Source: an uncultured Chitinophagaceae bacterium (lineage in GTDB: Bacteria; Bacteroidota; Bacteroidia; Chitinophagales; LD1). Taken from it: a DNA stretch of 44,564 nt. Location of the stretch: NCBI GenBank assembly GCA_964605875.1, contig CAZSEG010000008.1, forward strand, positions 1 through 44,564, in the 5' to 3' direction. The translations under genes and the position numbers were made by a program. The notes under the pieces were generated by a model. That model was not told the DNA's origin. It made no database searches and saw only the letters and a list, made by a program, of their open reading frames with translations. This document shows, in pieces, positions 17,027 to 33,549 of the stretch. Positions within the stretch are counted from its first letter, which is position 1. Each line of letters begins with the position of its first letter.

Positions 17027-17044
17027 GAAAAATCAGGAATTACA

Positions 17045-19297: not shown

Positions 19298-19348
19298 AAA
19301 GTTAAATCCTTATTTTGTTCTCAGGAATTAAACGCACAACGTTTTTGT

Positions 19349-20764
19349 ATGATAAGAAGATTGAAGAATAAAATAAAAAAAATATGGGAAACTCCGGTTT
19401 CAGACGGTGATACAGCCAGCCGTTCTTGGACAGATGAATTTAATAAGCACCGCAACAAAAAAGATATTTTTCGTGTCTGCCATGCCCCGTTCAAATCCAT
19501 CAGATTTGAGCCGAAGGGCATCGTGCGTACCTGTTGCTATAACGTTGAGGTTGTTTTAGGGCGTTATCCGGAAATGTCATTAACTCAAATTTGGAATAGC
19601 GATGAGGCGAATTTGCTAAGGGAAAAAATCAGTAACAATGATTTAAGCATGGGATGCCGCTTGTGCGGGCAGCAGTTAGCAAACAAAGAATACAGCACCG
19701 TTAAACTGTTGCAATATGATAATTTGCCCGACAGTATCAACAATTATCCTGTAATGCTTGATTTTTCATTGCACAATACTTGTAATTTGGAATGTGTGAT
19801 GTGTCACGGAGAGTTTTCTTCTTCTATAAGAAGCAATCGCGAAAAGCTGCCCCCTGTTCCAATGTTGTATGACGATAATTTTGTGCAGCAACTGGAAGAA
19901 TTTATTCCTTATGCACGGCAATTTGTATTTGCAGGTGGCGAGCCGTTTCTAATCAAGGTATATTACGATATTTGGGAACGCATCAATCGCCTGAGTCCCG
20001 AATCAGATATTCACATTGTTACAAATGGTACAATCTTAAATGAACGGGTAAAAACGATACTTGCCGCAGGAAAATATCACATTACCATGTCAATAGATTC
20101 CTTTCAGGAAAAAACCTACGAAACAATAAGGGTAAACGCATCATACAAACGTGTTATGGAAAATATGCAGTTTTTTCAAGAATACTGTAAACAACAAAAT
20201 ACCGAGTTTGCTGTTAATGTTTGCCCGATTAAAGAAAACAGGTTTGAAATTCCGGAAATGGTTGGCTTTTGTAATGCGCACGCAATTAAGTTGTATCTGT
20301 TAAACATCGTGTATCCTGTTGGGGTGTCTTTACACACACTGCCTTTGGCAGAACTGCAAACATTGCATGATAACTATGCTGCGTATCAATTTGAGCAGGA
20401 CACATACATCAGTAAACACAATTTAAAACAGTTTGAAGATTTGCAAAACAGAATTGCGGCACTGATACAAAAGAAAACGACAGATACCCCCGATGCTCAA
20501 TATACAGATGGCGACAAAGTTATGTTTGAGGTATATACCGACTTGCTTACAGAGAAAGCAGACAGGTTTTATCAGGAATCGGGGAGCGATGTTGTTGATG
20601 CCAGACAAAAAATAACAGAGATAGGAATACATTTTAAAGACAGTTACGTTTCTAAAGGAAGATTGAAAGAAATGGAAAGCATCAGTTCCGAAAGAATAGT
20701 TGTAATGTTCAGGACATTGTCTCATGAAGAGTTGAAAGAAGTAATAAAAACCCATATACTTTGA
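19349..20764 (+). CDS. Radical SAM enzyme with an N-terminal SPASM/twitch-like Cys motif
   Basis: 471 aa. CX3CX2C 'CNLECVMC' at 19781-19804. Upstream of it, 'CHAPFKSIRFEPKGIVRTC' fits CX12GX4C (first Cys at 19478-19480), followed by 'IW' and 'GCRLCG'. Confidence 0.82.
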   Translation: MIRRLKNKIKKIWETPVSDGDTASRSWTDEFNKHRNKKDIFRVCHAPFKSIRFEPKGIVRTCCYNVEVVLGRYPEMSLTQIWNSDEANLLREKISNNDLSMGCRLCGQQLANKEYSTVKLLQYDNLPDSINNYPVMLDFSLHNTCNLECVMCHGEFSSSIRSNREKLPPVPMLYDDNFVQQLEEFIPYARQFVFAGGEPFLIKVYYDIWERINRLSPESDIHIVTNGTILNERVKTILAAGKYHITMSIDSFQEKTYETIRVNASYKRVMENMQFFQEYCKQQNTEFAVNVCPIKENRFEIPEMVGFCNAHAIKLYLLNIVYPVGVSLHTLPLAELQTLHDNYAAYQFEQDTYISKHNLKQFEDLQNRIAALIQKKTTDTPDAQYTDGDKVMFEVYTDLLTEKADRFYQESGSDVVDARQKITEIGIHFKDSYVSKGRLKEMESISSERIVVMFRTLSHEELKEVIKTHIL

Positions 20765-23064
20765 AAAGCAGCTTTCATATAAAAGACAAAATTTCCCCTT
20801 GGTGGCAACCTAAGATTGCTTTTATACTATCGCATTGCTATTTGTGCTTTGCCATATTCCAAACAGATATTGTCCGTTCTGTTTTGTTTGTACTTCTGTT
20901 TACAATAAGTGCGTTAGGATTCGGTATGCTGGGGCATATCATTAACGATTGGACAGACGCAGAAACCGACAGAAAAAGCGAAAAAAAAAACATCGCCAAC
21001 GCATTTGGCTTTCGGAAATTACTGTGGGTTACTTCAGGTACATTATTGATTGCATTTTTCCCTTGGTTCTTTTTGGGGTTCGACCACATCATAGCAGCAT
21101 TTCTTATTGCCGAAATCCTGCTTTTTATTTTGTATTCCGTAAAACCGTTCAGGGTAAAGGAAAGAAAATGGGGCGGGGTACTTTTTGATGCCTTATATGC
21201 TTACGCGCTCCCGACTGCGCTGGTTTTTTATTCGGCAACAATATTTTTTGAACAGCCGCTAAACTTGATACTATTGGTGTCTGTGTCATTGTGGGCTTTG
21301 GCTGTGGGAATACAGAATATTATCATTCACCAGATAGAAGATTATGAAAATGATATTAGCTCAAAAACCCAAACATGGGTTGTGCAAACCGGAAGGCAAA
21401 AGGCACGAAAATTAGTACTCGCCTTTATTGTGCCACTCCACCTGTTATTATTTCTGCTGTTTGTATTTTATGTAGAAACACATTATTTACGTTTTTATGC
21501 CTTATTTCCATTATTGTTTCTTGCTTTCAGAATATACAAAACATTTCATTGGAAATCGTATAATTCTTTTCTGCGTTCTCCCGTATCATCAGACCTGCAA
21601 AAAATCAATATTCACTATCATTTTTTTCTTCCTTACTGGCATTTGCTTCTGTTGATTTTTATTGATTTTAAATTTGTCGTTTTGTTGATAACGCATTTCA
21701 TTTTCTTTAATTCCTCATTATTCAGTTGGCTTATTGCTAAATACATATCACCTTTTTTATTTTTTATTTTTTACAAAACACCCGCAGTAATTACAAATTA
21801 CGCTGTTTTTTATTACCGCCTTTTTTTTCTTGGAGAGTCGGCAGAACGTGCAAGACGAGAACATTATGCTTCGTATATCGCTGCAAAAAATGAAAAACAC
21901 AAAAGAAACACTTTGCCTAATATTGCCGTAGCGAACAGCAACAAAAACAAATACACCGAAACCTTTGTCGAAAATCATGTTGATGGTCTTCTTCGCTCAA
22001 ATTTTTATGTACACAGACTTTACGGAGGAAATTTACCATCTGCCGATTACCGGACGGGAATCCTTATTTCCAACAGCAAAGCATATATCAAATATTGCGA
22101 GTGGAAAGAGTTTATTTTCGATTTACCCGAAAATTATTATCAGAAAAAGGCAGTGAAAGATTATTTGGTAAAAAACAATATTACTCTTGCGTTGGCAGAG
22201 TTTGGAACGTGTGGCGTTGAACTATATGAAATTTGCTCCGAAATAAATATACCCTTAATTGTTATTTTTCACGGTTACGATATTCATCACAGTGATATAC
22301 GCGAAAAAAACAGACATCGTTACCTTAAAATGTTTGACTATGCTGCTAAAATTATAGGAGTTTCAAAGGATATAATAAGCAGGTTAAAAGAATTGGGTGC
22401 TGACGATAAAAAACTGATTTATTTACCTTGCACTTTTAATGCCGGTATATTCCAATATTCAGATCATTCAAAATGCGAAAATATTTTTCTTGCCGTAGGA
22501 AGATTTACAGAAACTAAAAGTCCGCACCTGACAATTCTTGCATTTAACGAAGTGTTGAAAGAAATTCCAAATGCACGGCTGAGAATGATTGGAAAAGATG
22601 GCGGAGGCGAATTATTTGAAGCCTGTCATATTCTGGCAAAAGCATTGAGCATAGAAAATAAGATTGATTTTTTGGGTGTTCTTTCGCCTTCCGAAGTTTA
22701 TGAAGAAATGAAAAATGCACGGGTATTTGTGCAACATTCATTGACAACCCCGCTGCATGGAGATAAAGAAGGAACTCCCGTTTCCGTAATAGAAGCAATG
22801 GCTTGCGGGCTGCCGGTAGTTGCTACCCGCCATGCGGGCATTGCAGAGCTAATCCGGTCGGGTGAAAATGGGATTTTGACAGAGGAGTATGATTATTTGA
22901 CAATGGCAAAAGAAATGGTGCGTGTTTGCAAAAACGATGCTTTAGTTTTTTCATTGGGAAAAAATGCTTCGGAAAGTATCCTGACCAATTCTTTAATCAC
23001 TGAAAATTCCAATATCTTAGCCGAGATAATTGAAAAATGCAGACTAAACAGTAAAACTTGCTGA
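20761..23064 (+). CDS. Fusion protein: UbiA-family prenyltransferase (N-terminal, membrane) plus GT4 glycosyltransferase (C-terminal)
   Basis: 767 aa. The TTG start overlaps the previous stop, so the start is uncertain. Asp-rich motifs 'NDWTDAETD' (20944-20970) and 'EDYEND'. About 8 TM helices, then a WcaL-like GT4 with 'GRFTETKSPH' and EX7E 'EGTPVSVIEAMACGLPVVAT' (22768-22794). Confidence 0.8.
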   Translation: MKSSFHIKDKISPWWQPKIAFILSHCYLCFAIFQTDIVRSVLFVLLFTISALGFGMLGHIINDWTDAETDRKSEKKNIANAFGFRKLLWVTSGTLLIAFFPWFFLGFDHIIAAFLIAEILLFILYSVKPFRVKERKWGGVLFDALYAYALPTALVFYSATIFFEQPLNLILLVSVSLWALAVGIQNIIIHQIEDYENDISSKTQTWVVQTGRQKARKLVLAFIVPLHLLLFLLFVFYVETHYLRFYALFPLLFLAFRIYKTFHWKSYNSFLRSPVSSDLQKINIHYHFFLPYWHLLLLIFIDFKFVVLLITHFIFFNSSLFSWLIAKYISPFLFFIFYKTPAVITNYAVFYYRLFFLGESAERARREHYASYIAAKNEKHKRNTLPNIAVANSNKNKYTETFVENHVDGLLRSNFYVHRLYGGNLPSADYRTGILISNSKAYIKYCEWKEFIFDLPENYYQKKAVKDYLVKNNITLALAEFGTCGVELYEICSEINIPLIVIFHGYDIHHSDIREKNRHRYLKMFDYAAKIIGVSKDIISRLKELGADDKKLIYLPCTFNAGIFQYSDHSKCENIFLAVGRFTETKSPHLTILAFNEVLKEIPNARLRMIGKDGGGELFEACHILAKALSIENKIDFLGVLSPSEVYEEMKNARVFVQHSLTTPLHGDKEGTPVSVIEAMACGLPVVATRHAGIAELIRSGENGILTEEYDYLTMAKEMVRVCKNDALVFSLGKNASESILTNSLITENSNILAEIIEKCRLNSKTC

Positions 23065-24851
23065 AAGGATTACACATAAATTTGTTCGCAAAGGCAACTG
23101 TTCCCTGGGTTATATGGACTGTATGCTTTTTTTTGTACTACCATCCGGGAATTGCTGCTCTCTTAGTTTTTATTGAATCGAACGTTGCTTTTTTGTTTAC
23201 GGCAAATTATTCGGAATACAAACAATGGTATCCTAACTGGCATCTTCTTGTATTTTTTGTTTTCCGTATTTTCCCGTTTATACTCATTTTACTGTGCAGC
23301 TTTCTTCTTCTAAAAATTATTCAAAAAAAAGGCAATAAGATTCTTAGCCGTTTAATCCCGTTTTTTGAGCTTAATTTCATGCAGTTGTTGTTTAATGCCG
23401 TTGCATTGTTACTTTTTTGGCTATTTGTGTATTACACGTTTCAGCCCGATTTTACCCGGCAGCTTATTATGGCACGTTGCTTTGTTTTGACACTTTATAT
23501 GCAACTGCTATTAACTGTTGTATTTAATTTTAACCGGGTAAAGAATATACTTAAACAATTTCTTTTTGTGCCTGCATTGCCATATACGCTGTCCATTTTC
23601 AGAATACTTTTTTATGCTTACAGCATTATATTTTATTTAGGCAACAGTGCCCGTTATTTTAAATCTGTTGCGAGCGGAACATTTACGCCAATGCCAATAT
23701 TTGGCGAATTATTTTATGTTTTTTCAACTTCTTTGTTTTTATATCAAGTTGTTTTTTGGCTGTGCATTGCTTCTTTTATAGGCGTAATAATAGGCTATAA
23801 AACTCGCTTGTTCTTAATATTAAGTGCAGTGCTAAGCCTGTTTGTGATAAGTGTTCCCAATATGTTTGGAACAAGCTGGCATCATCATCTTTTTATATGG
23901 GTAACATGGTTTTTAGTATTCAGTCCTTGTTTTGATGTTTATTCCATAGACTCGTATTTAAATAAAAACAAAACAATCCGGTTAAAAGGTGAATATACTT
24001 TCACTATTCGTATTATCTGGCTTCAAATAGGTATTCTGTATTGGTGTTCAGGTGTTGCTAAATTATGGGATTCCGGTTTTGACTGGGCATTGAGCGATTC
24101 TATGATTAACCAGTTTCAATTAGAATGGTTTGAGAACTATAATAAAGTGCCATATATCCGAATAGACAGATACCCGGCTTTAATGAAATTTGGCGGCTTG
24201 GCAGCGATTTGTTTTGAAATGCTGTACTTCTTCTTCCTTTTTAAAAAATATACCAGAAGAATTGCAATTTGGGGAGCATTGCTGATGCACAACCTGCTTG
24301 GATATTTTCTATATATCAGTTTTCTTGCTGCGCTTCAGGCTTTTTATATAGTTTTTATTGACTGGAATAAATATTTTAAGAGCAATAATGTGGCGGAAAT
24401 TCAAGACCGAAATCCTGTAAATAAGTGGAATATTCGTATCGGTATCGGAGTTGTTTTAATGAATCTGTTTTTTGGTATGGCATCTATTAAAACGTATCCT
24501 TTTTCCGGTTATCCTGAATATTCAGAAATTATACCTGACTATACATATCAACTTAAACTTACCGGATATAATGATGATAAAATTGTTTTTACAAATGCCG
24601 ATTTTGAGAAAGAAGGCTTTGACTGGGAAACTTTCAGACGGAGAGAACAAAAAATTGCCAATGTTTTTTTAGGGGGAAATGATTGCGAATCGTATATCAG
24701 GTCGTATTGGAGTTTGATTAACCAACATATTCGCGCATCGAAAGATGTTCGCAATCTTGATGTCAGCCTGCTTAAAGTAAACCTGAACCCGGACAGCCTG
24801 AAAATACTTGACGAGAAATTTATCGGGAGCTATTCGTTTGCTGTAAAATAA
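23058..24851 (+). CDS. HTTM domain (vitamin K-dependent gamma-carboxylase-like) polytopic membrane protein, paralogue 1
   Basis: 597 aa, TTG start. 'LSIFRILFYAY', 'WHHHLFIWVTWFLVFSPCFDVYSID' and 'WLQIGILYWCSGVAKLWDSGFDWA' fit the HTTM pattern. Strongly collinear with ORF 27921-29750. Confidence 0.6.
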   Translation: MLKGLHINLFAKATVPWVIWTVCFFLYYHPGIAALLVFIESNVAFLFTANYSEYKQWYPNWHLLVFFVFRIFPFILILLCSFLLLKIIQKKGNKILSRLIPFFELNFMQLLFNAVALLLFWLFVYYTFQPDFTRQLIMARCFVLTLYMQLLLTVVFNFNRVKNILKQFLFVPALPYTLSIFRILFYAYSIIFYLGNSARYFKSVASGTFTPMPIFGELFYVFSTSLFLYQVVFWLCIASFIGVIIGYKTRLFLILSAVLSLFVISVPNMFGTSWHHHLFIWVTWFLVFSPCFDVYSIDSYLNKNKTIRLKGEYTFTIRIIWLQIGILYWCSGVAKLWDSGFDWALSDSMINQFQLEWFENYNKVPYIRIDRYPALMKFGGLAAICFEMLYFFFLFKKYTRRIAIWGALLMHNLLGYFLYISFLAALQAFYIVFIDWNKYFKSNNVAEIQDRNPVNKWNIRIGIGVVLMNLFFGMASIKTYPFSGYPEYSEIIPDYTYQLKLTGYNDDKIVFTNADFEKEGFDWETFRRREQKIANVFLGGNDCESYIRSYWSLINQHIRASKDVRNLDVSLLKVNLNPDSLKILDEKFIGSYSFAVK

Positions 24852-25662
24852 TACCTATTTTCTTTTGCAATTCAGGTGGGTTTTGCCCCCACAAACTATT
24901 AATCTGAAACAGGAAACCGTAAATAAACTGAGGCGGCATTTTTTTTGTTATCAACTGTTTTTCAAATTGTTTCACGAAATTTAAAGAATCGCAAACTAAA
25001 TTGCTCATACAACTGTAACAATTCTGGAACATATAGTTGTTATTTTTTTTTCTTAAAATGGCATCAATAGCAATAGTATCTATGCAAGCTCCGCCCATAT
25101 TTTGAAGCCAATTGTTTTCGGTTTCTTTTCGTATTGATATTTCCTGATATGCCGTATCTTCCACAATTTGTATGTTTTCCAAATTTTGGTTTTTTAAATC
25201 GTGAAGCAATTCAAAAAAATCTTTAGGCTTATTTAAGCTGTCTGCAATTGTGCAGTTAAAAAAAGCATCTTGTACAATCCATTTTGAAGGGGAATCGGAT
25301 ATTTTTACAAGAGCAACGACATGAGATAAATGAATATTGAACCCGAAATTGTAAGTGCAGGCTTCAATCCCCTGCCGTTCAAGAGATTTTACAAGCAGGG
25401 CTGCCGCTAATCCGCAAGTGGTACGCCCTTTATTTTCATTTATTCTTTTCAGGTATTTATCTGTATCAAAATCTTCAAAAGTATCGTATCTGAAATCATT
25501 TAAAACGGGGTCAATGCTGTCGCCCATAATAATCAGTTGCGCTATGGTTCGCCTCTGGTTTTGACTTATTTCAAATTTCGCCTGCATTTCTTCAGCTCGT
25601 TGCTTACAAGACTGAAACAAAACGAAGCTGCAGCACAGGAAGAAAACAAACTTTAGATTCAT
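24820..25662 (-). CDS. Lipoprotein with a transglutaminase-like Cys-His-Asp core (putative cysteine peptidase/acyltransferase fold)
   Basis: Signal peptide with lipobox-like 'VLFQSC'. 'GRTTCGLAAALLVKSLERQGIEACTYNFG...HVVALVK...WIVQDAFF' matches the C...H...D spacing of transglutaminase-like domains. Confidence 0.5.
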   Translation of the reverse strand: MNLKFVFFLCCSFVLFQSCKQRAEEMQAKFEISQNQRRTIAQLIIMGDSIDPVLNDFRYDTFEDFDTDKYLKRINENKGRTTCGLAAALLVKSLERQGIEACTYNFGFNIHLSHVVALVKISDSPSKWIVQDAFFNCTIADSLNKPKDFFELLHDLKNQNLENIQIVEDTAYQEISIRKETENNWLQNMGGACIDTIAIDAILRKKNNNYMFQNCYSCMSNLVCDSLNFVKQFEKQLITKKMPPQFIYGFLFQINSLWGQNPPELQKKIGIILQQTNSSR

Positions 25663-25708
25663 TAGTAAGGGATTGCAACGAAACTAATAAGATGTTTGAA
25701 TTTTCCTA

Positions 25709-25716
25709 TAAATTTG
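25709..25716 (+). promoter_or_regulatory. Candidate -7 box (TAaaTTTG)
   Basis: Exact TAnnTTTG match, 16 nt upstream of the ATG at 25732, in the 69-bp divergent intergenic region. Confidence 0.35.
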
Positions 25717-25731
25717 AAACCTTAATGTTGT

Positions 25732-26937
25732 ATGAAAAAGTTAATAGCACTCCTGATTGTTGCATTATTCTCTTTACTGTTTGTAACAATAATTCCCGCT
25801 TGGTGGTTTAATCGAACATTAAACCACTTTGAAATCTGGTATCCTGATTTTGGCAGAATACTTTTTTTTTATCTGAATTATGGTTTTTATCCGCAATTTT
25901 TAATTGCTTTATTCGGGTTAGTTTACCTGATTTACAAACGGCTTAAATCGGGCTATGGGTTGAAGTGGCAAAAAACATTGCATACCCTTGTATATCTATC
26001 GGTTTTTGCGGTCGCCCTGTCGGTTTTTTACATATTTCACAGTTCGTATTATGCCCTGCAGTATAGCTCTTATCCAAAAAAAAATATTGTAATATGGGAA
26101 GATAAGAGAAATGCTATTCTTGATTCGCTTGCTAATTGCGAGAATCTTCAGGACAGTATAATTTGTATCAACCGTTTTGCTTACAGAGACGCATTACATG
26201 GAGGCAGAAGCATACGCATAAACAGTGTTGATATAAATAAAACTGCCTTGCAATGGGAGGCGGAGGTTTTTGCGCATTATTTTTCGGAAGATAAATTGAC
26301 GGTTAATTGTGACGGAAATTCTATGTATAATGTTTCTCTTTACAAGGAATTTATGGACGAACAACTAAAATCCTACCGTTATTTCATCGGTATTCCAAAC
26401 GACCCTGAGAAGAAAGGACATGCAATCAATCTGTTAGTTACAAACACGAAGCAATATTATTTGATTGACCCTATGTTTAACTCATGGTTTGCCGATGAAT
26501 CGGGAAATCTGATTGATTTAAGGAAGTTGATATTGAAATACAGGCTGTCTGATATGGACAGTGTCAGGTTGGCTTATATTCCTGAAAAAGCGCAATGCCT
26601 TACTTATTCCGAAGCGGTAACACTGATTGACCATCCGCTTTTTGATGAAGACAAAGAAGGATACTTTTTAAGAAGCAATAATGATGAATTTCCCCTTGTT
26701 TTTAATTGCGAAAGGAATCTTAAAGACTATTTAGAACCGGATTATTATGAAGATTATCAGGATATTGCAGCTTATTACGGGAGAACAGATTTGAAATTTA
26801 CGGATGAAAAAGATTTTGTAAATTGTTTTGCTTTTGTCAGCCTGATAGAGGGAGAAGGCGGGGAAGATATTTTGAAAGAAATCAGGAATTGGTTTGAAAG
26901 TGATATAAGAACACTTGAACAATTACAAATAAATTAG
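25732..26937 (+). CDS. Membrane-anchored protein: N-terminal WYP two-helix module plus a transglutaminase-like domain (paralogue of 24820-25662)
   Basis: 401 aa. The N-terminus 'IPAWWFNRTLNHFEIWYPDFGRILFFYLNY' closely matches ORF 9024. The soluble part has 'NCDGNSMYNVSLY...GHAINLLV...YYLIDPMFNSWFADESGN', collinear with 'HVVALVK...WIVQDAFFNCTIADSLNK' of the lipoprotein. Confidence 0.5.
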   Translation: MKKLIALLIVALFSLLFVTIIPAWWFNRTLNHFEIWYPDFGRILFFYLNYGFYPQFLIALFGLVYLIYKRLKSGYGLKWQKTLHTLVYLSVFAVALSVFYIFHSSYYALQYSSYPKKNIVIWEDKRNAILDSLANCENLQDSIICINRFAYRDALHGGRSIRINSVDINKTALQWEAEVFAHYFSEDKLTVNCDGNSMYNVSLYKEFMDEQLKSYRYFIGIPNDPEKKGHAINLLVTNTKQYYLIDPMFNSWFADESGNLIDLRKLILKYRLSDMDSVRLAYIPEKAQCLTYSEAVTLIDHPLFDEDKEGYFLRSNNDEFPLVFNCERNLKDYLEPDYYEDYQDIAAYYGRTDLKFTDEKDFVNCFAFVSLIEGEGGEDILKEIRNWFESDIRTLEQLQIN

Positions 26938-26950
26938 ACAAGAGAATAAA

Positions 26951-27919
26951 ATGAAAAAAGCAATTGTATTAGGCGCAGGCGGCTTCATCGGCTCGCATTT
27001 GGTGAAAAGATTAAAAAGCGAAGGTTATCGCGTAAAAGGAATTGATTTAAAACATCCCGAATTTTCCGGAACAGCAGCCGATGAGTTTGTTTTGGGCGAT
27101 TTGCGCAATTGGGATTTTGTGCAAAATATCATTGACGAAAATACAGACGAACTATATCAGCTTGCAGCCGACATGGGCGGAGCGGGATATATTTTTACCG
27201 GAGAACATGATGCCGATGTGATGCACAATTCAGCACAAATAAACCTGAATGTGGCAAAAGCAGCCGTTGAGAAAAAAGTGAAAGCATTATTTTATTCTTC
27301 GTCTGCCTGTATGTATCCCGAATATAATCAGACAGACCCCGACAACCCCAAATGTGCTGAAAACACTGCCTATCCTGCCGCACCCGACAGCGAATACGGA
27401 TGGGAAAAATTGTTCAGCGAACGCCTGTATTTATCGTTCAAAAGAAATTACGGGCTGAATGTAAAAATCGCCCGCTATCACAACATCTACGGAACGGAAA
27501 GCGCGTGGAAAAACGGTAAGGAGAAAGCTCCTGCCGCGCTTTCAAGAAAAGTAGCGCAAACGCCCGGTGGCGGTGAAATAGAAATTTGGGGCGATGGAAA
27601 ACAAACCCGTTCGTTTCTTTTTATTGACGACTGCTTGGATGCAACAACAATGCTGCTGCGGTCGGATAAAACAGGAGCATATAATATCGGTTCGGAAGAA
27701 ATGATTTCGATTAACGATTTTGCAAAACTGATTATGCAAATTGCAGGAAAACAATTCACGATAAAAAATATACCGGGACCCGAAGGCGTAAGAGGAAGAT
27801 GTTCCGATAATGCTTTGATTAAAAAAGATTTGAAATGGCAACCGGAATATGATTTGAAAAAAGGAATGGAAATTACTTACAAATGGATAGCGGGGGAAGT
27901 TGAAAAAAATAAAATCTGA
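26951..27919 (+). CDS. GDP-mannose 3,5-epimerase-like SDR (NAD-dependent epimerase)
   Basis: 322 aa. 'GAGGFIGSH', 'LAADMGG', 'SSACMYPE', 'YGWEKL', 'RYHNIYG..WKNGKEKAPAA', 'WGDGKQTRSF.FIDDC', 'IPGPEGVRGRCSDNALIKK'. These blocks match plant GME almost block for block as I recall its sequence, including the catalytic Cys/Tyr/Lys positions. Confidence 0.8.
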   Translation: MKKAIVLGAGGFIGSHLVKRLKSEGYRVKGIDLKHPEFSGTAADEFVLGDLRNWDFVQNIIDENTDELYQLAADMGGAGYIFTGEHDADVMHNSAQINLNVAKAAVEKKVKALFYSSSACMYPEYNQTDPDNPKCAENTAYPAAPDSEYGWEKLFSERLYLSFKRNYGLNVKIARYHNIYGTESAWKNGKEKAPAALSRKVAQTPGGGEIEIWGDGKQTRSFLFIDDCLDATTMLLRSDKTGAYNIGSEEMISINDFAKLIMQIAGKQFTIKNIPGPEGVRGRCSDNALIKKDLKWQPEYDLKKGMEITYKWIAGEVEKNKI

Positions 27920-27920
27920 A

Positions 27921-29750
27921 ATGATTTTAAAGAGCAATATCATTTCATTTATTTCCAAAATCAGGCATTACCTGATTTTTAATTTAGGCTATCTGTTTTT
28001 TTTAGTTTTTGCTGTTTTATATTTTTATTACCGGAGAGAATTTTATGATGCTTTCCACTTTTATTTTGAAGCGCCATACAATTATTTTAAGCTGTGGTTT
28101 CCAAAATTTTATTTTGAGGCATATTTATTTACCATAATTCTGAAAATTTCTTTTTTCGTTACACTCATTGCCTCAGTATATTATTTATTCAGGAAAAGTA
28201 AACAAAGTGCTTCTTGGATTTTCTATAATATACAATCCGGTTACTGGCGGTTTATTGCTTATGAGTTTGCAATAATACTCCCGTTTTTTCTGCTTTACCT
28301 TACCTTGTATTTTTCATTAAAATACTTTGTGCCGACAGCGCAAAATGGCTTACAGATACTTATTACAAGAGGCTTTTTACTGCATATTTCTTTTCAAGCG
28401 GTAATTATACTTTTCGGAAACTTTGAAAAGATACGGAATTATTTAAAAAATTATTTACTGCTGCCGCAATTGCCACACAATATTGCTGTTTTAAGAATAG
28501 TGTTCTTTTTTTATCTGGCATATATTTATGACAGAAAATATTTTTCTGCTTTACCGACAGTTTCTTTAACAAGTAAAGTTTCCTTGCCTTATATCGGTTG
28601 GCTGATAGAATTGATTCCTGTGAATACCTCCATTTATACGGTATTTATTTTTATTGGAATTATTTGCTGTGCATTTATTGTAATCGGCTATAAAACAAGA
28701 TGGTTTTTGCTCGTTAATGCAGTGTGCGCTTTTTACATTATTGCCACGCCTAATTTTTTTGGCAAATTGTGGCACGAGCAATTGGTAATATGGATATGCT
28801 GGTTTTTTGCTTTGAGCAGATGTTATGATGCACTTTCATTAGATGCCAAACTGAGCAAAAAACCGATTGTAAAAAGCGCAGATTATACATTTCCTGTAAG
28901 ATTTATATGGCTGCAATTGGGTATCATTTATTTTTGGGCGGGGTTTTACAAATTGTGGGATTGTGGTTTTGATTGGGCGTTAAGTCAATCAATGATTAAT
29001 CAGGTGCAGTTGGAGTGGCTGCAACACTATGATAAAATTCCCGCTATAAGAATTGACAACTATCCCATATTATTAAAGATAAGCGGATTGTTGGTAATAG
29101 GTTTTGAACTGTGCTATATTTTATTTGTATTGAAACCCGCAACACGCTGGATTGCTGCTGCCGGAGGATTGTTGATGCACAATGTTATCGGCTATTTTAT
29201 GTACATTTCTTTTTCGCATTTATTGCAGGCTTTCTATGTAGTTTATGTTGATTTCACTTGCTTGTTTTCCAAAGGAAAGCAAAATGCGGAAGTTGTTTTT
29301 GGCTATTCCAAAGCGGCTTTCGGTACAGGGATTTTAGTTCTCTCGATAAATTTTTTATGCGGTATGTTTTCAATAGACACCTACCCGTTTTCTTCCTATC
29401 CTAAATATGCGGCTATAATTCCCGATACTATAAAAATTATACATTTTGAGCCATACTTGCCCGATAGCAATACCGTTGATGTTCACGCTGTGGGCAAAAA
29501 AAATAATTTCAGGTGGGAAAGCTATGGTTGGTTAGAGTATGGCTTAATCAAGGATTTTGAAACCGGGCAAGATGTACAAAAACGTTTGTATGATTACTGG
29601 GAAATATGGCAGAGCCATAACCCCGAACTGAAAGAATACAAAAATGTGAAAGTATCTGTCAGAGAACGCCCTGTATCTCCCGAAGGAATCAATCAAAATA
29701 AAATCACGCAATTTATGGGAACGATTGGCGATTGCAACGAACAGGAATAA
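27921..29750 (+). CDS. HTTM domain polytopic membrane protein, paralogue 2
   Basis: The ATG at 27921 sits directly after the epimerase stop (the track starts at TTG 27900). 'IAVLRIVFFFY', 'WHEQLVIWICWFFALSRCYDALSLD', 'WLQLGIIYFWAGFYKLWDCGFDWALSQSMINQVQLEW' and 'LLMHNVIGYFMYISF' are collinear with ORF 23058. Confidence 0.6.
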   Translation: MILKSNIISFISKIRHYLIFNLGYLFFLVFAVLYFYYRREFYDAFHFYFEAPYNYFKLWFPKFYFEAYLFTIILKISFFVTLIASVYYLFRKSKQSASWIFYNIQSGYWRFIAYEFAIILPFFLLYLTLYFSLKYFVPTAQNGLQILITRGFLLHISFQAVIILFGNFEKIRNYLKNYLLLPQLPHNIAVLRIVFFFYLAYIYDRKYFSALPTVSLTSKVSLPYIGWLIELIPVNTSIYTVFIFIGIICCAFIVIGYKTRWFLLVNAVCAFYIIATPNFFGKLWHEQLVIWICWFFALSRCYDALSLDAKLSKKPIVKSADYTFPVRFIWLQLGIIYFWAGFYKLWDCGFDWALSQSMINQVQLEWLQHYDKIPAIRIDNYPILLKISGLLVIGFELCYILFVLKPATRWIAAAGGLLMHNVIGYFMYISFSHLLQAFYVVYVDFTCLFSKGKQNAEVVFGYSKAAFGTGILVLSINFLCGMFSIDTYPFSSYPKYAAIIPDTIKIIHFEPYLPDSNTVDVHAVGKKNNFRWESYGWLEYGLIKDFETGQDVQKRLYDYWEIWQSHNPELKEYKNVKVSVRERPVSPEGINQNKITQFMGTIGDCNEQE

Positions 29751-29753
29751 ATC

Positions 29754-31268
29754 ATGAAACCTCATTTAAAGACAATTACTTACCTGTTCCTGCTCAACAT
29801 TTTTTTTGTTGTCTTTTTATTTTTGCTTGGGCACTCGTGGTATATAGCTGAAATGGGAGAAACTGCAAAAACAGCATATCCGCGATTTTATTTTTTGTTT
29901 GTGTTGCTTGGGCAGAACAGTGTTTTTCTTTTTGATTTTTTTTCAATAGCAATTATTCTGCTTAATACCTTTCTTATATTCAAACTAATCTCATTATATC
30001 GTGATAAAGGGACAGCAGTTCTTTTTTTCTGCTCAACAACAGTTGCACTTATGGCAGCGGAATGGACATTGAGAAAAATGGAGTATCTGCCCGGAATGTA
30101 TCCATGGTCTAAATATTCATTCAAACCTGCAGAAAAATTACAAGAGAAGAAAGGTTTTTATGCTGATGAAGACGGCATATTGAAAATTGACAGTACAAGC
30201 CAATTAGAAATAGCTTCAATGATAGTGAAAAATCAAAAAGAATTTGGGATAAACAAAGCAGATGAAGTGTATGAACTGGCAAGCAATTATACAGATGTTT
30301 TAAACAGAATGGCAGACAATGATTTTTCTGAACATTATTTTTCGATAATGCAAAAACCTGAAAATATACGAACGGAATGGGAAGCTGCCATAGTAAATTT
30401 TGTTTGTAACCCGATAAATAAAGATGGATTCAGAAGTATTGAGTTCAAGAGATACAGGTGCTCCAAACCTTCCATATTACTGCTCGGTGATTCTTTTACC
30501 TGGGGGCATACTACTGATAATAAAACCAACTCATTTGCCGATATTTTATTAAGCAAAGGTTTTGTGGTATATAATACAGGAATTACTACAACAGATGTGG
30601 CTCAGTATTTAGCCGTGGCAAAAAAATATATTCCCGAATTATACCCCGATTATGTAGTCGTAAATTTTTATCTCGGCAATGACATTTCTTATTACAAACG
30701 GGAGGTTTTGCCACATCACCCGACATTTTATTGTACTAATAACTATTTACTTGCCTGTCCGCATGGCAAATATCTGAACAAGGAAGAATCTTATCAATTT
30801 GCATTGGCATATAATCAAGTGCCGTCTAACGAAAAAAGTATAGTGGATAGACTATTGATAAAAACCGTAGTCGGAACACTATTGATGTGGCGTTGCTCAA
30901 ATATTGATTTGGTTCCTTACCTGACACATTGTAATTCAGGAATCCACAGAGGAATTTTGACACCTTATTTCCAAGAAGCTGAAAAACGGAAATACCCGAC
31001 ACCGTACTGCAATCAAGAGTTACAACAAATAAAAAACATAGCCGAGCAGCACAATTCTAAATTTATTTTGTCATCTATTCCCGATTTCAGTACCGGGTCG
31101 TTGAAAACGACAAAGGACTTTCCTGATTTGTTTACAGGAATGGAGTATGTAGAAATGAACGTGAGGCGGGCAGATTACGAATTGGGGAGTGGAATACATT
31201 TTAATGAGGCGGGTCATAAAAAGTATGCGGAATTTTTGGACAGCTTAATACGAAACTCTCAATACTAA
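29754..31268 (+). CDS. Membrane-anchored SGNH/GDSL-family hydrolase or acyltransferase
   Basis: 504 aa with N-terminal TM helices. Block I 'LLLGDSFTWGH', block II 'NTGITTTD', block III 'NFYLGNDI', block V-like 'GIHFNEAGHKKYAEFL'. Confidence 0.65.
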   Translation: MKPHLKTITYLFLLNIFFVVFLFLLGHSWYIAEMGETAKTAYPRFYFLFVLLGQNSVFLFDFFSIAIILLNTFLIFKLISLYRDKGTAVLFFCSTTVALMAAEWTLRKMEYLPGMYPWSKYSFKPAEKLQEKKGFYADEDGILKIDSTSQLEIASMIVKNQKEFGINKADEVYELASNYTDVLNRMADNDFSEHYFSIMQKPENIRTEWEAAIVNFVCNPINKDGFRSIEFKRYRCSKPSILLLGDSFTWGHTTDNKTNSFADILLSKGFVVYNTGITTTDVAQYLAVAKKYIPELYPDYVVVNFYLGNDISYYKREVLPHHPTFYCTNNYLLACPHGKYLNKEESYQFALAYNQVPSNEKSIVDRLLIKTVVGTLLMWRCSNIDLVPYLTHCNSGIHRGILTPYFQEAEKRKYPTPYCNQELQQIKNIAEQHNSKFILSSIPDFSTGSLKTTKDFPDLFTGMEYVEMNVRRADYELGSGIHFNEAGHKKYAEFLDSLIRNSQY

Positions 31269-32563: not shown

Positions 32564-33548
32564 TCCATATTTGTCAATAGTATTGGTAGGGCGTAATGAT
32601 AATTACGGTGGCGATTTTAGGGAGCGTTTGCAAATGTGCATATCCGGTTTGTTCGAGCAGTTAAATCGTTTCCGGATTCATTCGGAAATTATTTTTGTCA
32701 ATTACAATCCTTTACCGGAACCGGATATTAAAGATTTTATTGCTTGGCACAAATCAACCGATTATGTTTCAATTCGTATCATAACAGTTCCTTCTGAAGT
32801 CCATGAAAAATTTGTTTTGAAGCACGGAATAAAAAACGTTCCGGTGAATGAATATCTTGGAAAAAACGCAGGAATAAGAAGAAGCAAAGGTGAATATATT
32901 TTATGTATGAATCCTGACATTTTGTTTCCTGACGAACTCGTAAAATATGTTTTAAAAGGATTGCAACAGTGTTATTTTTACCGTGCAAACAGAATTGATT
33001 TTGATTTTGTTGACGGAAAAAAACAATTGCTGCGCATTAATTTGAAAGGACATTCTCCCAAAATTCAAATTTACTCAGAATGGGCTACTTGGTTCTTAAA
33101 TTTGAAATATGCTTTTATCAATTGGTATATGATCAATTCAGTCAGGATAGAAAAGTTTTTAAATCGCATCAAAAAGCCGGTTTTTTATGATAATGCCGAA
33201 CTTCGTTTTCACTGCAAAACCAGTGGAGATTTTATGTTGATGCACCATTCACATTGGATGGCAACAGAAGGTTATTTTGAAACTTCCGCTATCGCACTTC
33301 ACATAGATTCATTATTTGTCATTCAAACTGCAATGTATGGTTTAAAGGAAAAGGTTATTAAATTTCCTATTTACCACAGAGAGCATGAAAGAAGATTTAC
33401 CGCAAACAATGATAATCCCGAAGAACTTGATGCCTATAAGCGTTTTCAACATGAAGCACAGATGATGCTCAAACAGAAGAAGAATAAAATATTTAATCAA
33501 AATAATTGGGGATTGATTGACTTGACATTACCCGAAATTAATTCATAG
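32556..33548 (+). CDS. GT-A fold glycosyltransferase (GT2-like)
   Basis: 330 aa. 'LSIVLVGRNDNYGGDF', 'NAGIRRSKGEYILCMNPDILF', 'GDFMLMHHSHWMATEGY'. Overlaps the upstream gene by 8 nt. Confidence 0.65.
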   Translation: MSNPYLSIVLVGRNDNYGGDFRERLQMCISGLFEQLNRFRIHSEIIFVNYNPLPEPDIKDFIAWHKSTDYVSIRIITVPSEVHEKFVLKHGIKNVPVNEYLGKNAGIRRSKGEYILCMNPDILFPDELVKYVLKGLQQCYFYRANRIDFDFVDGKKQLLRINLKGHSPKIQIYSEWATWFLNLKYAFINWYMINSVRIEKFLNRIKKPVFYDNAELRFHCKTSGDFMLMHHSHWMATEGYFETSAIALHIDSLFVIQTAMYGLKEKVIKFPIYHREHERRFTANNDNPEELDAYKRFQHEAQMMLKQKKNKIFNQNNWGLIDLTLPEINS

Positions 33549-33549
33549 C

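What the first reader, a model, noticed from the sequence alone, without database searches (positions are those of the whole stretch)
23058..29750. Two HTTM (vitamin-K carboxylase-like) paralogues plus an LMF1-like protein in one glycan locus
Seen: ORFs 23058-24851 and 27921-29750 share long collinear blocks:
- 'WH..L.IW..WF...S.C.D..S.D'
- 'R.IWLQ.GI.Y...G..KLWD.GFDWAL S.SMINQ.QLEW'
- 'LLMHN..GYF.YISF...LQAFY.V..D'
- 'TYPFS.YP.Y..IIPD'
These fit my recollection of the HTTM domain. ORF 9024-10904 looks LMF1-like.
Established: the characterised relatives act on proteins. VKGC carboxylates Glu using a prenylquinone cofactor, SdpB is required for maturation of a Bacillus toxin peptide, and LMF1 matures secreted lipases. 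None has a known role in polysaccharide synthesis.
Inference: either these bacterial members have a new glycan- or lipid-directed activity, or the locus also modifies a protein. The co-located UbiA prenyltransferase is notable because VKGC needs a prenylated quinone.
Basis: partly seen in the sequence, partly recalled or inferred. Interest (0 to 1): 0.7.

Follow-up and report, generated by a model that had tools for sequence, protein, structure and literature searches.

The report
Vitamin-K-carboxylase-like enzymes in glycolipid locus
Three membrane proteins in this Bacteroidota gene cluster have the fold of the human vitamin-K-dependent carboxylase, and two of them clearly keep its key catalytic residues; they are built into a conserved cluster of prenyl-transfer and sugar-transfer genes, which suggests that vitamin-K-type chemistry is used on a lipid-anchored sugar product rather than on blood-clotting-type proteins.

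Summary
ORFs 23058-24851 and 27921-29750 are paralogues (36% identity, E 1e-110). ORF 9024-10904 is a clear LMF1 protein (Pfam E 6.6e-39).

Neither paralogue hits Pfam HTTM directly. HTTM membership rests on three other lines:
- Six of seven tested relatives pass the HTTM cut-off.
- A confident AlphaFold model (pLDDT 91) matches only human VKGC chains in the PDB.
- Profile alignment to VKGC (E 1.5e-5) places invariant K344, E396, H285 and W352 on catalytic or quinone-pocket residues K218, D263, H160 and W223.

The VKGC Glu-binding Asn pair is not conserved, and no VKGC lumenal-domain match was found. These are therefore not gamma-glutamyl carboxylase orthologues.

The family is large (784 representatives at E<=1e-30). 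It sits in a syntenic cassette: UbiA/GT4, SDR, HTTM, SGNH, two GT2-like genes, an NDP-sugar dehydrogenase and a GT-C+TPR protein, often with PhyH oxygenases and a Wzm/Wzt exporter. In other MAGs UbiA is fused directly to the HTTM protein.

Best reading: a menaquinol-dependent VKGC-like oxygenase/base that acts at the periplasmic face on a prenyl-anchored glycoconjugate. The reaction itself is unknown. This is a new variant of a known kind, and the interest is fairly high.

The parts
27921..29750 (+). HTTM2: core orthologue of a Bacteroidota VKGC-like (HTTM superfamily) membrane enzyme. It has a 4-TM N-terminal extension, a ~270-aa HTTM core and a ~105-aa C-terminal alpha/beta domain.
   Evidence: Relatives share 45-74% identity and sit in the same syntenic position. 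AF2 model pLDDT 91.2. Foldseek against the PDB gives only VKGC chains, E 4.5e-6. hhalign to VKGC gives E 1.5e-5.
23058..24851 (+). HTTM1: divergent lineage-specific paralogue of HTTM2. Its start overlaps the UbiA-GT4 stop by 7 nt.
   Evidence: 36% identity to HTTM2, E 1e-110. None of 154 relatives is closer to it than to HTTM2. It keeps every invariant residue of alignment A1.
28950..28952 (+). Codon of K344 in HTTM2, aligned with the VKGC catalytic base K218. Partner residues are E396 (29106-29108, ~D263), H285 (28773-28775, ~H160) and W352 (28974-28976, ~W223).
   Evidence: Invariant in 48 sequences. Equivalences come from hhalign. Coordinates. Residue roles from PMC12589487, PMC12647623 and PMC13486548.
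24060..24062 (+). Codon of K335 in HTTM1 (= K344 of HTTM2). Partner residues are E387 (24216-24218), H275 (23880-23882) and W343 (24084-24086).
   Evidence: Alignment A1 mapping.
9024..10904 (+). LMF1-family membrane protein with a VKGC-like fold, encoded between the ABC permease and ATPase genes. It keeps an invariant Lys (K271, 9834-9836) and Glu (E321), but not the His.
   Evidence: Pfam PF06762 E 6.6e-39. AF2 pLDDT 89.3. Foldseek against the PDB gives only VKGC chains, E 5e-4. hhalign A1 against A5 gives E 4.9e-4 with K344~K271 and E396~E321. Conservation.
20761..23064 (+). UbiA prenyltransferase (aa ~30-260) fused to a GT4 glycosyltransferase (aa ~460-740).
   Evidence: Pfam UbiA 3.8e-13 and Glycos_transf_1 1.4e-32. 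Orphan UbiA subfamily. Fused in 9 loci including the window and split in others. UbiA is fused to HTTM in P0346, P0351, P0353, P0360 and P0361.
26951..27919 (+). Extended SDR epimerase/reductase and the best-conserved cassette gene. It ends 1 nt before the HTTM2 start.
   Evidence: Pfam Epimerase 1.1e-45. Best NCBIfam match is GDP-L-fucose synthase at 118 bits, far below its cut-off. 62-93% identity across loci.
24820..25662 (-). Predicted lipoprotein with an invariant Cys-His-Asp triad (transglutaminase-like thiol enzyme?).
   Evidence: Alignment A6 has invariant C83, H114 and D132. One family member gives a weak Transglut_core hit, E 0.0015. Present in 7 loci including the window.
25732..26937 (+). 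Membrane-anchored protein with the shared N-terminal W-Y-P hairpin and the same Cys-His-Asp domain.
29754..32563 (+). Two tandem membrane-anchored SGNH/GDSL-like proteins (29754-31268 and 31268-32563), directly downstream of HTTM2.
   Evidence: Weak Pfam Lipase_GDSL and Lipase_GDSL_2 hits, E ~1e-4. The HTTM-SGNH gene order recurs in most of the 14 loci that hold this SGNH family.
32556..34599 (+). Two paralogous GT2-like proteins (32556-33548 and 33550-34599).
   Evidence: Only weak Glycos_transf_2 hits. Conserved as a pair in 21 loci.
34596..35708 (+). NDP-sugar 6-dehydrogenase, which makes a uronic-acid precursor.
   Evidence: TIGR03026 at 235.8 bits against a cut-off of 189.8. Present in 19 loci.
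2809..5610 (+). GT-C (PMT_2-like) polytopic glycosyltransferase with C-terminal TPR repeats.
   Evidence: TPR hits. 9 of 15 family members hit PMT_2, best E 1.9e-9. In 15 loci it usually closes the cassette. In shorter HTTM relatives it lies 8-18 nt upstream of the HTTM gene.
8101..12294 (+). Wzm/KpsM-type ABC permease (8101-8925) and TagH/Wzt-type ATPase (11008-12294), flanking the LMF1-like gene.
13239..20764 (.). Variable tailoring block: two PhyH 2OG oxygenases, a P450, a CMAS-like methyltransferase, a P450 fused to an unknown ~340-aa domain, and a SPASM/twitch radical-SAM enzyme.
   Evidence: PhyH arrays of up to 6 copies occur in related loci.

Best explanation
The two ORFs encode paralogous members of a large, Bacteroidota-centred, very divergent branch of the HTTM / vitamin-K-dependent-carboxylase superfamily. 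The LMF1-like ORF is a third protein with the same fold.

The proposed mechanism is inferred. Each HTTM protein binds a prenylated naphthoquinol in the membrane, most simply the cell's own menaquinol. The conserved Lys/Glu pair (K344/E396) deprotonates it so that it reacts with O2, as in VKGC. The resulting oxygenated-quinone base, or oxidising equivalent, then modifies a substrate held under the highly conserved periplasmic cap loop.

That substrate is probably not a Gla-type protein. It is more likely the prenyl-anchored glycoconjugate assembled by the co-conserved genes: UbiA prenyltransferase, GT4, GT2-like enzymes, NDP-sugar dehydrogenase, SDR, SGNH and GT-C+TPR. In this locus the product would be exported by Wzm/Wzt. 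HTTM2 is the core enzyme of the cassette. HTTM1 is an extra copy with the same active site but different N- and C-terminal parts, so probably the same chemistry on a different position or partner.

Shown: paralogy, fold, conserved catalytic and quinone-pocket residues, synteny, and UbiA fusions. Inferred: the quinol cofactor, periplasmic orientation, the identity of the substrate, and the reaction type (carboxylation, epimerisation or oxidation).
For: Homology and fold:
- The paralogues match each other at E 1e-110.
- The family overlaps Pfam HTTM. Six of seven tested relatives, 35-43% identical to HTTM2, pass the gathering cut-off over nearly the whole profile.
- The AF2 model has pLDDT 91.2 and pTM 0.88.
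- In the PDB only 16 VKGC chains match (E 4.5e-6 to 1e-2, probability 1.0). The next hit has E 0.38.
- In BFVD the only hit is the Yasminevirus VKGC-like epoxidase-desaturase.

Active site:
- hhalign to VKGC gives E 1.5e-5 over 231 columns.
- Residues invariant in 48 sequences fall on K218, D263 (as Glu), H160, W223, Y211, G215, H287 and R68.
- K218, D263 and H160 start quinol deprotonation and stabilise the substrate. W223, A214 and G259 line the naphthoquinone and isoprenyl pocket (PMC12589487, PMC12647623, PMC13486548).
- The cap loop (aa 345-381) and the post-TM linker (aa 483-500) are the most conserved parts, 73% and 67% identical between the paralogues. The N-terminal extension and C-terminal domain are only 13% and 23% identical.

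Context:
- The gene order UbiA/GT4-SDR-HTTM-SGNH-GT2l-GT2l-NDPDH-GT-C/TPR recurs in MAGs labelled in their records as Chitinophagaceae, Flavobacterium, Chryseobacterium, Saprospiraceae, Crocinitomicaceae and Dokdonia.
- UbiA lies within 10 kb in 16 of 19 loci with adequate flanks.
- UbiA::HTTM fusion proteins exist, and one sits in the same cassette.
- The LMF1-like subfamily also sits beside UbiA, PhyH and ABC genes elsewhere.

Precedent for non-protein substrates: MloH (PMC12186529, PMC12647623).
Against: - Neither window protein hits Pfam HTTM or any NCBIfam model directly, and the family profile finds no PDB sequence. Residue equivalences therefore rest on a profile-profile alignment of moderate probability (79.6%).
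- That alignment stops at H420. The counterparts of the CO2-trapping F299 and of M401/M402 are unresolved: invariant F431 fits only with a one-residue shift.
- TM-scores to VKGC are only about 0.40.
- No biochemical data exist for any family member.
- No VKOR-type epoxide reductase was seen in the window or the loci, so recycling of a quinone epoxide is unaccounted for. The rest of the genome is not available.
- Two full-flank loci (L012, L025) and the shorter relatives lack UbiA nearby, so UbiA is not an obligate partner.
- A TPR-bearing PMT_2-type GT-C is typical of protein O-glycosylation, which keeps a protein target plausible.
Confidence: 0.4

Rival explanations
1. The target is a protein. 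The cassette is a periplasmic protein-modification system. The PMT_2-like GT-C with TPR repeats O-glycosylates secreted or surface proteins with a glycan built by the GT4 and GT2-like enzymes. The HTTM proteins modify the same proteins, as VKGC and the SdpB-dependent SdpC maturation do.
For: - The characterised animal enzyme (VKGC) acts on secreted proteins.
- The GT-C partner belongs to the protein-mannosyltransferase-like PMT_2 family and carries TPR repeats.
- In the shorter relatives this gene sits 8-18 nt upstream of the HTTM gene.
- T9SS-signal (Por_Secre_tail) proteins lie next to the HTTM or LMF1-like genes in two loci.
- Periplasmic Cys-His-Asp (transglutaminase-like) proteins are part of the cassette.
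Against: - No VKGC lumenal/propeptide-binding domain (PF22777) was detected in the direct Pfam scans of the two window proteins or among the families hit by the 48 aligned members. All VKGC orthologues retrieved carry it.
- The Glu-binding N158/N159 are replaced by L/W.
- No conserved small ORF or precursor gene was seen in the window or in the clustered loci.
- The direct UbiA::HTTM fusions point to a prenyl-lipid partner.
Confidence: 0.22
2. The UbiA product is itself the HTTM substrate. UbiA prenylates an aromatic or quinol head group. The fused or adjacent HTTM oxygenates (epoxidises) that prenyl-quinol. GT4 and the GT2-like enzymes glycosylate it. PhyH, P450, radical-SAM and methyltransferase enzymes tailor it. 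The ABC transporter then exports a glycosylated meroterpenoid-type lipid.
For: - The fusions are permuted: UbiA-GT4 in the window and UbiA-HTTM elsewhere, within the same cassette.
- The quinol-activating residues are conserved.
- From my own recollection, not checked here, the Leptospira VKGC orthologue was reported to have epoxidase activity without carboxylase activity. The giant-virus VKGC-like proteins are proposed, from sequence, to retain epoxidase but not carboxylase activity (PMC13486548).
- The tailoring genes are of natural-product type.
- A conserved DxDDT(A/S) block lies in the P450-fused domain. It recalls class II terpene cyclases, but that comparison is from memory only.
Against: - No conserved gene supplies an aromatic head group.
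- The UbiA domain matches no aromatic prenyltransferase subfamily near its cut-off.
- The tailoring genes vary between loci, whereas the sugar genes and the GT-C are the conserved core.
- The terpene-cyclase idea found no support in PDB sequence searches.
Confidence: 0.18
3. The HTTM protein acts in quinone-coupled redox rather than as an oxygenase. It would oxidise a hydroxyl of a polyprenyl-phosphate-linked sugar made by UbiA and pass the electrons to menaquinone. The adjacent SDR would then reduce the keto intermediate, giving epimerisation. This is a functional analogue of the mycobacterial UbiA(DPPR synthase)/DprE1/DprE2 route that feeds GT-C transferases. A variant is a general DoxX-like redox or chaperone role, as proposed for LMF1.
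For: - UbiA, SDR, HTTM and GT-C co-occur with no DprE1-type flavoenzyme in the cassette.
- From my own knowledge, HTTM and LMF1 belong to the same clan as the quinone-linked DoxD/DoxX proteins.
- Other bacterial LMF1 proteins are fused to a DCC thiol-disulfide oxidoreductase domain, which points to redox functions.
Against: - No DPPR-synthase model appears among the UbiA hits.
- The SDR is of the extended nucleotide-sugar type, closest to GDP-fucose synthase, not DprE2-like.
- Conservation of the complete VKGC Lys/acid/His set argues for VKGC-like quinol activation.
- The SDR is probably cytoplasmic, whereas the HTTM site is predicted to be periplasmic.
Confidence: 0.1
4. The HTTM proteins are non-catalytic scaffolds or carriers that organise the periplasmic-face enzymes or hold the lipid carrier. 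The similarity to VKGC would then be only structural.
For: - A shared N-terminal hairpin motif (F-K-x-W-Y-P) occurs in several different membrane enzymes of the cassette. It hints at assembly into one complex.
- No activity is known for LMF1 itself.
Against: 31 residues are invariant across 48 sequences that share as little as ~32% identity, including the exact VKGC catalytic set. The most conserved segments are the active-site cap and linker. The divergent paralogue HTTM1 keeps all of them.
Confidence: 0.05

Closest known systems
[quoted passage not shown]
   Same: It is the only significant structural match. The HTTM core aligns, and residues invariant in this family fall on K218, H160, W223, Y211, G215, H287 and R68, with an acidic residue (Glu) at D263. 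The predicted topology is the same, with the site on the non-cytoplasmic face.
   Different: - No Pfam HTTM hit for the window proteins themselves.
- No lumenal propeptide/Glu-binding domain (PF22777) detected. A ~105-aa C-terminal alpha/beta domain takes its place.
- A 4-TM N-terminal extension is added.
- The Glu-binding N158/N159 are replaced.
- The genomic setting is glycan and prenyl-lipid genes, with no Gla-type substrate in view.
MloH, the VKGC homologue of malonomycin biosynthesis (Streptomyces)
   Same: It is a bacterial HTTM enzyme embedded in a biosynthetic gene cluster and acting on a non-protein intermediate (PMC12186529, PMC12647623, bioRxiv 10.64898/2026.08.19.745780).
   Different: Its substrate is a polyketide-peptide intermediate and its partners are PKS/NRPS genes. 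Here the partners are UbiA, glycosyltransferases and an ABC glycan exporter.
Giant-virus VKGC-like epoxidase-desaturase fusions (for example Yasminevirus A0A5K0UBG6)
   Same: It is the only BFVD structural hit. It keeps K218 and has Glu in place of D263, exactly as in this family. It lacks the carboxylation region and is proposed to act on lipids (PMC13486548).
   Different: It is fused to a sterol-desaturase-like domain and lies next to VKOR. Here the fusion or neighbour is UbiA or GT4, and no VKOR is seen. The viral domain is truncated to about 230-300 aa.
Lipase maturation factor 1 (LMF1, PF06762) and bacterial DCC-LMF1 proteins
   Same: ORF 9024-10904 passes the LMF1 model strongly and has the VKGC-like fold.
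   Different: The LMF1_C match is below its cut-off (17 against 34.2 bits). The N-terminal DCC thiol-disulfide oxidoreductase domain, common in other bacterial LMF1 proteins, is absent and replaced by the W-Y-P hairpin. The gene sits between Wzm and Wzt in a glycan locus.
Mycobacterial decaprenyl-phospho-arabinose route (UbiA-type DPPR synthase, DprE1/DprE2, GT-C arabinosyltransferases)
   Same: It combines a UbiA-family enzyme, an SDR and a GT-C transferase that uses a lipid-linked sugar at the outer face. This comparison rests on my own knowledge of the pathway.
   Different: There is no DprE1 flavoenzyme. The UbiA domain does not match DPPR synthase models. The SDR is of the nucleotide-sugar type. 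The resemblance is in organisation only.

Membership tests
HTTM domain family (Pfam PF05090) | The protein itself scores above the Pfam gathering cut-off (27.7 bits). | tested here: not met
   Neither window paralogue gives any hit, even at E<=10. NCBIfam also gives none.
HTTM domain family (Pfam PF05090) | Homologous family members score above the cut-off over the full domain (transitive membership). | tested here: met
   P0074, P0078, P0080, P0109, P0118 and P0120 score 30.6-55.6 bits and cover up to profile positions 1-259. They match HTTM2 at E 1e-83 to 1e-111.
VKGC / HTTM superfamily | VKGC-type transmembrane fold. | tested here: met
   AF2 pLDDT 91.2. Foldseek against the PDB gives 16 VKGC chains at E 4.5e-6 to 1e-2 and probability 1.0, with nothing else below E 0.38.
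VKGC / HTTM superfamily | Catalytic Lys (K218) with its acidic partner (D263) and His (H160). | tested here: met
   K344, E396 and H285 are invariant in 48 sequences and align to these residues. A Glu at the D263 position is also found in the viral homologues, and the human D263E mutant keeps partial activity (PMC13486548).
VKGC orthologues (true gamma-glutamyl carboxylases) | Lumenal domain PF22777, the conserved 374-418 region, and Glu-binding N158/N159/Y395. | tested here: not met
   No PF22777 hit. N158/N159 align to L283/W284. The alignment does not extend into region 374-418.
VKGC orthologues (true gamma-glutamyl carboxylases) | CO2-trapping Phe (F299) and the M401/M402 wall. | tested here: inconclusive
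   The hhalign alignment ends at H420~H287. Invariant F431 has the right spacing only with a one-residue shift. No coordinates were available for a superposition.
VKGC / HTTM superfamily | Quinol-dependent oxygenase (epoxidase) activity. | not testable with these tools
   This needs biochemistry.
LMF1 (Pfam PF06762), ORF 9024-10904 | The LMF1 domain scores above its cut-off. | tested here: met
   134.1 bits against a cut-off of 27, covering profile positions 2-162 of 163.
LMF1 (Pfam PF06762), ORF 9024-10904 | LMF1 C-terminal domain PF25179. | tested here: not met
   17 bits against a cut-off of 34.2. The close subfamily carries PF06762 only, whereas more distant bacterial LMF1 proteins carry PF25179.
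GT-C glycosyltransferases (the refuting alternative) | A match to a GT-C family profile, or a GT-C fold. | tested here: not met
   No Pfam hit and no GT-C structure among the Foldseek hits. A separate gene, 2809-5610, is the GT-C.
Acyltransferase_3 (the refuting alternative) | A match to PF01757. | tested here: not met
   No hit for the window proteins or for any of 48 relatives.

The most novel reading that the evidence does not exclude
Bacteroidota use vitamin-K (menaquinol) epoxidation chemistry, so far known for protein Glu carboxylation and one antibiotic, to modify a lipid-linked envelope glycan. One example would be carboxylation or epimerisation of the carbon next to the carboxylate of a uronic acid supplied by the co-conserved NDP-sugar dehydrogenase. 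The UbiA enzyme, the HTTM enzyme and a GT-C transferase would form a previously unrecognised membrane pathway. The shared W-Y-P hairpin would dock the periplasmic-face enzymes into one complex.
Probability: 0.15. Interest if true: 0.9.

Novelty: new variant of a known kind. Interest (0 to 1): 0.68.

Why it matters
VKGC-type chemistry uses quinol oxygenation to create a very strong base. It is known experimentally from animal protein carboxylation and from one Streptomyces antibiotic pathway, and most of the many bacterial HTTM and LMF1 proteins have no assigned role.

Here a large, conserved branch (hundreds of 50%-identity clusters) keeps the catalytic core. It is tied by gene order and by gene fusion to a prenyltransferase, glycosyltransferases, a GT-C enzyme and a glycan exporter. 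That gives a concrete, testable setting for a bacterial function of this superfamily. It also suggests a new kind of envelope glycolipid or glycan modification, and offers a bacterial handle on what LMF1-type proteins do.

Tried and rejected
- Direct Pfam scans (E up to 10) and NCBIfam scans (E up to 1) of both paralogues found nothing.
- The family profile found nothing among PDB sequences.
- GT-C and acyltransferase_3 were rejected. There are no profile or fold matches, and the true GT-C is gene 2809-5610.
- The search for a precursor peptide or small conserved ORF found only a thioredoxin gene in the one sizeable intergenic gap. No conserved small ORF appeared among the clustered loci.
- The UbiA domain could not be assigned to a subfamily. 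All hits are far below their cut-offs. The ideas that it is MenA-like or DPPR-synthase-like are therefore unsupported.
- hhalign of the LMF1-like alignment against VKGC was not significant on its own (E 0.094). Only the fold search and the A1-A5 comparison link them.
- PDB sequence and profile searches for the GT2-like pair, the membrane part of the GT-C/TPR protein and the P450-fused C-terminal domain were uninformative.
- Locus L035, which holds an LMF1-like homologue, gave no interpretable context.
- Literature searches found no description of this cassette.
- C5 deprotonation of a uronic acid was considered as the reaction. It is kept only as a low-probability reading, because known epimerases and lyases do this without a superbase.

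Full report
**Observation**

The window is a 44.6-kb contig that matches an NCBI record of the same length holding protein P0001. It carries ORFs 23058-24851 (597 aa) and 27921-29750 (609 aa from the ATG, which matches P0001). They are true paralogues.

ORF 9024-10904 matches Pfam LMF1 at E 6.6e-39.

The surrounding genes confirm a glycan-type locus:
- UbiA fused to GT4.
- A KpsM/Wzm-type permease and a TagH/Wzt-type ATPase.
- An NDP-sugar dehydrogenase above its NCBIfam cut-off.
- An extended SDR.
- Two weakly GT2-like proteins and two SGNH-like proteins.
- Two PhyH oxygenases, two P450s, a methyltransferase and a radical-SAM enzyme.

The low-GC stretches (0.31-0.38 at about 2-6 kb and 8-36 kb, against 0.41-0.44 in the flanks) cover these genes.

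**Are the paralogues HTTM proteins?**

Neither protein hits Pfam HTTM or any other Pfam or NCBIfam model, even at permissive thresholds. A profile of 48 relatives finds no PDB sequence. Three independent indirect lines nevertheless agree.

1. Transitive homology. Among relatives that match HTTM2 at E 1e-83 to 1e-111, six of seven tested pass the HTTM gathering cut-off over almost the full model.
2. Fold. An AlphaFold2 model of HTTM2 is confident, with pLDDT 91.2 and pTM 0.88. In the PDB it matches only 16 human VKGC chains (E 4.5e-6 to 1e-2, probability 1.0), and the next hit has E 0.38. In the viral structure library it matches only the Yasminevirus VKGC-like epoxidase-desaturase.
3. Profile-profile alignment. 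Against human VKGC, whose sequence was checked against PDB entries, hhalign gives E 9.5e-5. Against a vertebrate VKGC alignment it gives E 1.5e-5 and probability 79.6% over 231 columns.

No GT-C or acyltransferase_3 signal appears anywhere.

**Active site**

In the hhalign alignments, residues invariant in all 48 family sequences, HTTM1 included, fall on functional VKGC residues:

| HTTM2 residue | VKGC residue | Role in VKGC |
|---|---|---|
| K344 | K218 | base that deprotonates vitamin K hydroquinone |
| E396 | D263 | acidic partner of K218 (D263E keeps partial activity; giant-virus homologues also have Glu) |
| H285 | H160 | Glu and CO2 pocket |
| W352 | W223 | naphthoquinone pocket |
| Y337, G341 | Y211, G215 | TM5 |
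| H420 | H287 | TM7 |
| R192 | R68 | conserved N-terminal region, ahead of the first TM helix |

The roles of K218, D263, H160 and W223 are taken from PMC12589487, PMC12647623 and PMC13486548. The TM5, TM7 and R68 locations are inferred from the TM labels those papers give to neighbouring residues.

By contrast, the Glu-binding N158/N159 are L/W here. No VKGC lumenal domain (PF22777) is detected. The equivalents of F299 and M401/M402 cannot be settled, because the alignment ends at H420.

The best-conserved segments are the periplasmic cap loop (aa 345-381) and the linker after the last TM helix (aa 483-500). They are 73% and 67% identical between the paralogues, whereas the N-terminal extension and the C-terminal domain are 13% and 23% identical. 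The quinol-activating core is therefore retained, the carboxylase-specific substrate apparatus is not, and the outer face of the active site is under strong family-specific constraint.

**The LMF1-like protein**

Its model (pLDDT 89.3) also matches only VKGC chains in the PDB, E 5e-4 to 8e-3. hhalign between the two family alignments gives E 4.9e-4 and pairs K344 with the invariant K271, and E396 with E321. The His is not conserved.

About 32 close homologues form a subfamily that carries PF06762 only. More distant bacterial LMF1 proteins mostly carry an N-terminal DCC thiol-disulfide oxidoreductase domain, which is absent here.

The locus therefore encodes three VKGC-fold membrane proteins.

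**Genomic context**

A scan of species-representative genomes found 33 related loci. Nearly all are labelled as Bacteroidota MAGs; two 'Sphingobacteriales bacterium' records carry no MAG label. Clustering their ORFs together with the window's (34 loci in all) gives these counts:

| Gene family | Loci (of 34) |
|---|---|
| HTTM | 34 |
| UbiA and/or GT4 | 24 |
| GT2-like pair | 21 |
| SDR | 19 |
| NDP-sugar dehydrogenase | 19 |
| GT-C/TPR | 15 |
| SGNH | 14 |
| PhyH (36 copies in all) | 11 |
| ABC ATPase | 10 |

The recurrent gene order is UbiA/GT4-SDR-HTTM-SGNH-GT2l-GT2l-NDPDH-GT-C/TPR. The TPR membrane protein is a GT-C, because 9 of 15 members hit PMT_2.

A UbiA homologue lies within 10 kb in 16 of the 19 loci with adequate flanks. 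UbiA and GT4 are fused in nine loci including the window, and separate in others.

HTTM2 is the orthologue found everywhere. HTTM1 has no closer relative than 38% identity among 154 sequences, so it is a lineage-specific extra copy. Only one other locus, L028, has two copies.

A search of 1.84 billion cluster representatives with the family profile found 3947 proteins at E<=1e-3 and 784 at E<=1e-30. Among the best hits, five proteins of 818-884 aa are UbiA::HTTM fusions. One of them sits in the same cassette, followed by GT4, SDR, a GT2-like gene and the dehydrogenase.

Shorter relatives of about 530 aa lack UbiA nearby. They lie 8-18 nt downstream of the TPR membrane protein, among GT2, ACP/KASIII, GNAT, MBOAT, PhyH and ABC genes.

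LMF1-like homologues occur inside the cassette in L009, and next to UbiA, six PhyH genes, an ABC ATPase, a methyltransferase and a radical-SAM enzyme in L034.

**Interpretation**

The fusions and the synteny tie this HTTM branch to enzymes that handle prenyl-anchored substrates (UbiA, GT-C) and to sugar-building enzymes. The retained Lys/Glu/His/Trp set argues for binding and activation of a prenylated naphthoquinol. From my own knowledge, Bacteroidota have menaquinones as their respiratory quinones, so a cofactor is at hand without the UbiA gene.

Parity with VKGC and the distribution of Lys/Arg in the loops place the cap loop, the C-terminal domain and the W-Y-P loop on the periplasmic side. 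This is an inference.

I therefore favour a menaquinol-dependent VKGC-like oxygenase/base that works at the periplasmic face on the prenyl-anchored glycoconjugate of the cassette. The reaction type is open.

The rivals are:
- a protein target, suggested by the PMT_2+TPR partner;
- the UbiA product itself as the quinol-like substrate of a meroterpenoid-glycolipid pathway;
- a quinone-coupled dehydrogenase role that, with the SDR, would give a DprE1/DprE2-like epimerisation;
- a non-catalytic scaffold.

Precedents for non-protein substrates exist. MloH works on a polyketide-peptide intermediate (PMC12186529, PMC12647623, bioRxiv 10.64898/2026.08.19.745780), and viral epoxidase-desaturase fusions are proposed to act on lipids (PMC13486548).

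**Novelty and verdict**

Automated annotation already labels a few members 'Vitamin K-dependent gamma-carboxylase', 'HTTM domain-containing' or 'DoxX/SURF4 family', so the distant homology is not wholly new. I found no description of the cassette, of the UbiA fusions or of any function.

This is a new variant of a known kind: VKGC-superfamily enzymes embedded in a prenyl/glycan pathway. The mechanism is plausible but untested.

Noticed in passing
window 23190-23260, 28050-28110, 9130-9190, 25820-25880; also L004:1-1705(-) and L001:8447-10318(+): Several otherwise unrelated membrane proteins of the cassette start with the same TM hairpin, whose loop carries the motif F-K-x-W-Y-P-x-F/W-G. They are HTTM1, HTTM2, the LMF1-like protein, the Cys-His-Asp protein 25732-26937, and GT-C-like polytopic proteins in related loci. 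The loop is predicted to be periplasmic. It could be a docking element for a common partner or complex.
   Followed up: partly
window 24820-25662 (-) and 25732-26937 (+): The two genes between the HTTM paralogues, and their relatives in eight other loci, share an invariant Cys-His-Asp triad. One is a predicted lipoprotein and the other has the W-Y-P hairpin anchor. One family member gives a weak Transglut_core hit (E 0.0015). They are possibly periplasmic thiol hydrolases or transferases.
   Followed up: partly
window 17138-19297 (+), C-terminal part about 18245-19294: This P450 carries an extra ~340-aa domain. It has a block, P-V-P-x-D-I/V-D-D-T-A/S, conserved in all three homologues found. 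From memory the block resembles the DxDDTA signature of class II terpene cyclases. No PDB sequence match was found, so the resemblance is unverified.
   Followed up: partly
P0346, P0351, P0353, P0360, P0361; L036:10001-12589: In other metagenomic Bacteroidota the UbiA prenyltransferase is fused directly to the HTTM-like protein (818-884 aa). In the window it is fused to GT4 instead. The fusions are thus permuted within one cassette.
   Followed up: yes
window 7675-7995 (+): A thioredoxin gene (WCGPC motif) lies just upstream of the ABC permease gene. It is probably housekeeping, but it is noted because VKGC-type systems depend on thiol-driven quinone recycling.
   Followed up: no
window 1-44564 (composition): The GT-C/TPR gene region (about 2-6 kb) and the cassette (about 8-36 kb) have 31-38% GC, against 41-44% in the flanking housekeeping genes. 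The flanks include a topoisomerase IV/gyrase A-type subunit, RecQ, LpxD and an LpxC-FabZ fusion, all named from their sequences without a profile search. The pattern is typical of a variable or horizontally exchanged surface-glycan island.
   Followed up: no
L005, L006, L014, L019, L034, L036 (related loci): Tandem arrays of three to six PhyH-type 2OG oxygenase genes sit next to the ABC ATPase and UbiA genes. The number varies strongly between loci, and their substrate is unknown.
   Followed up: no
P0274-P0326 (distant LMF1 homologues): Most distant bacterial LMF1 proteins have the architecture DCC thiol-disulfide oxidoreductase + LMF1 + LMF1_C. The subfamily in this window has lost the DCC domain.
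   Followed up: partly
L037:8017-11593 and L039:8004-11626: Shorter HTTM relatives (about 530-540 aa, without the N-terminal extension) lie 8-18 nt downstream of a ~658-aa TPR membrane protein. The clusters also hold ACP, KASIII, GNAT, MBOAT and GT2 genes, and L037 has an adjacent T9SS-signal protein.
   Followed up: partly
window 19349-20764 (+): This radical-SAM enzyme has an N-terminal SPASM/twitch domain. It scores 164 bits against NCBIfam NF033640, just under the 170-bit cut-off. It is conserved in at least one related locus (L011).
   Followed up: no
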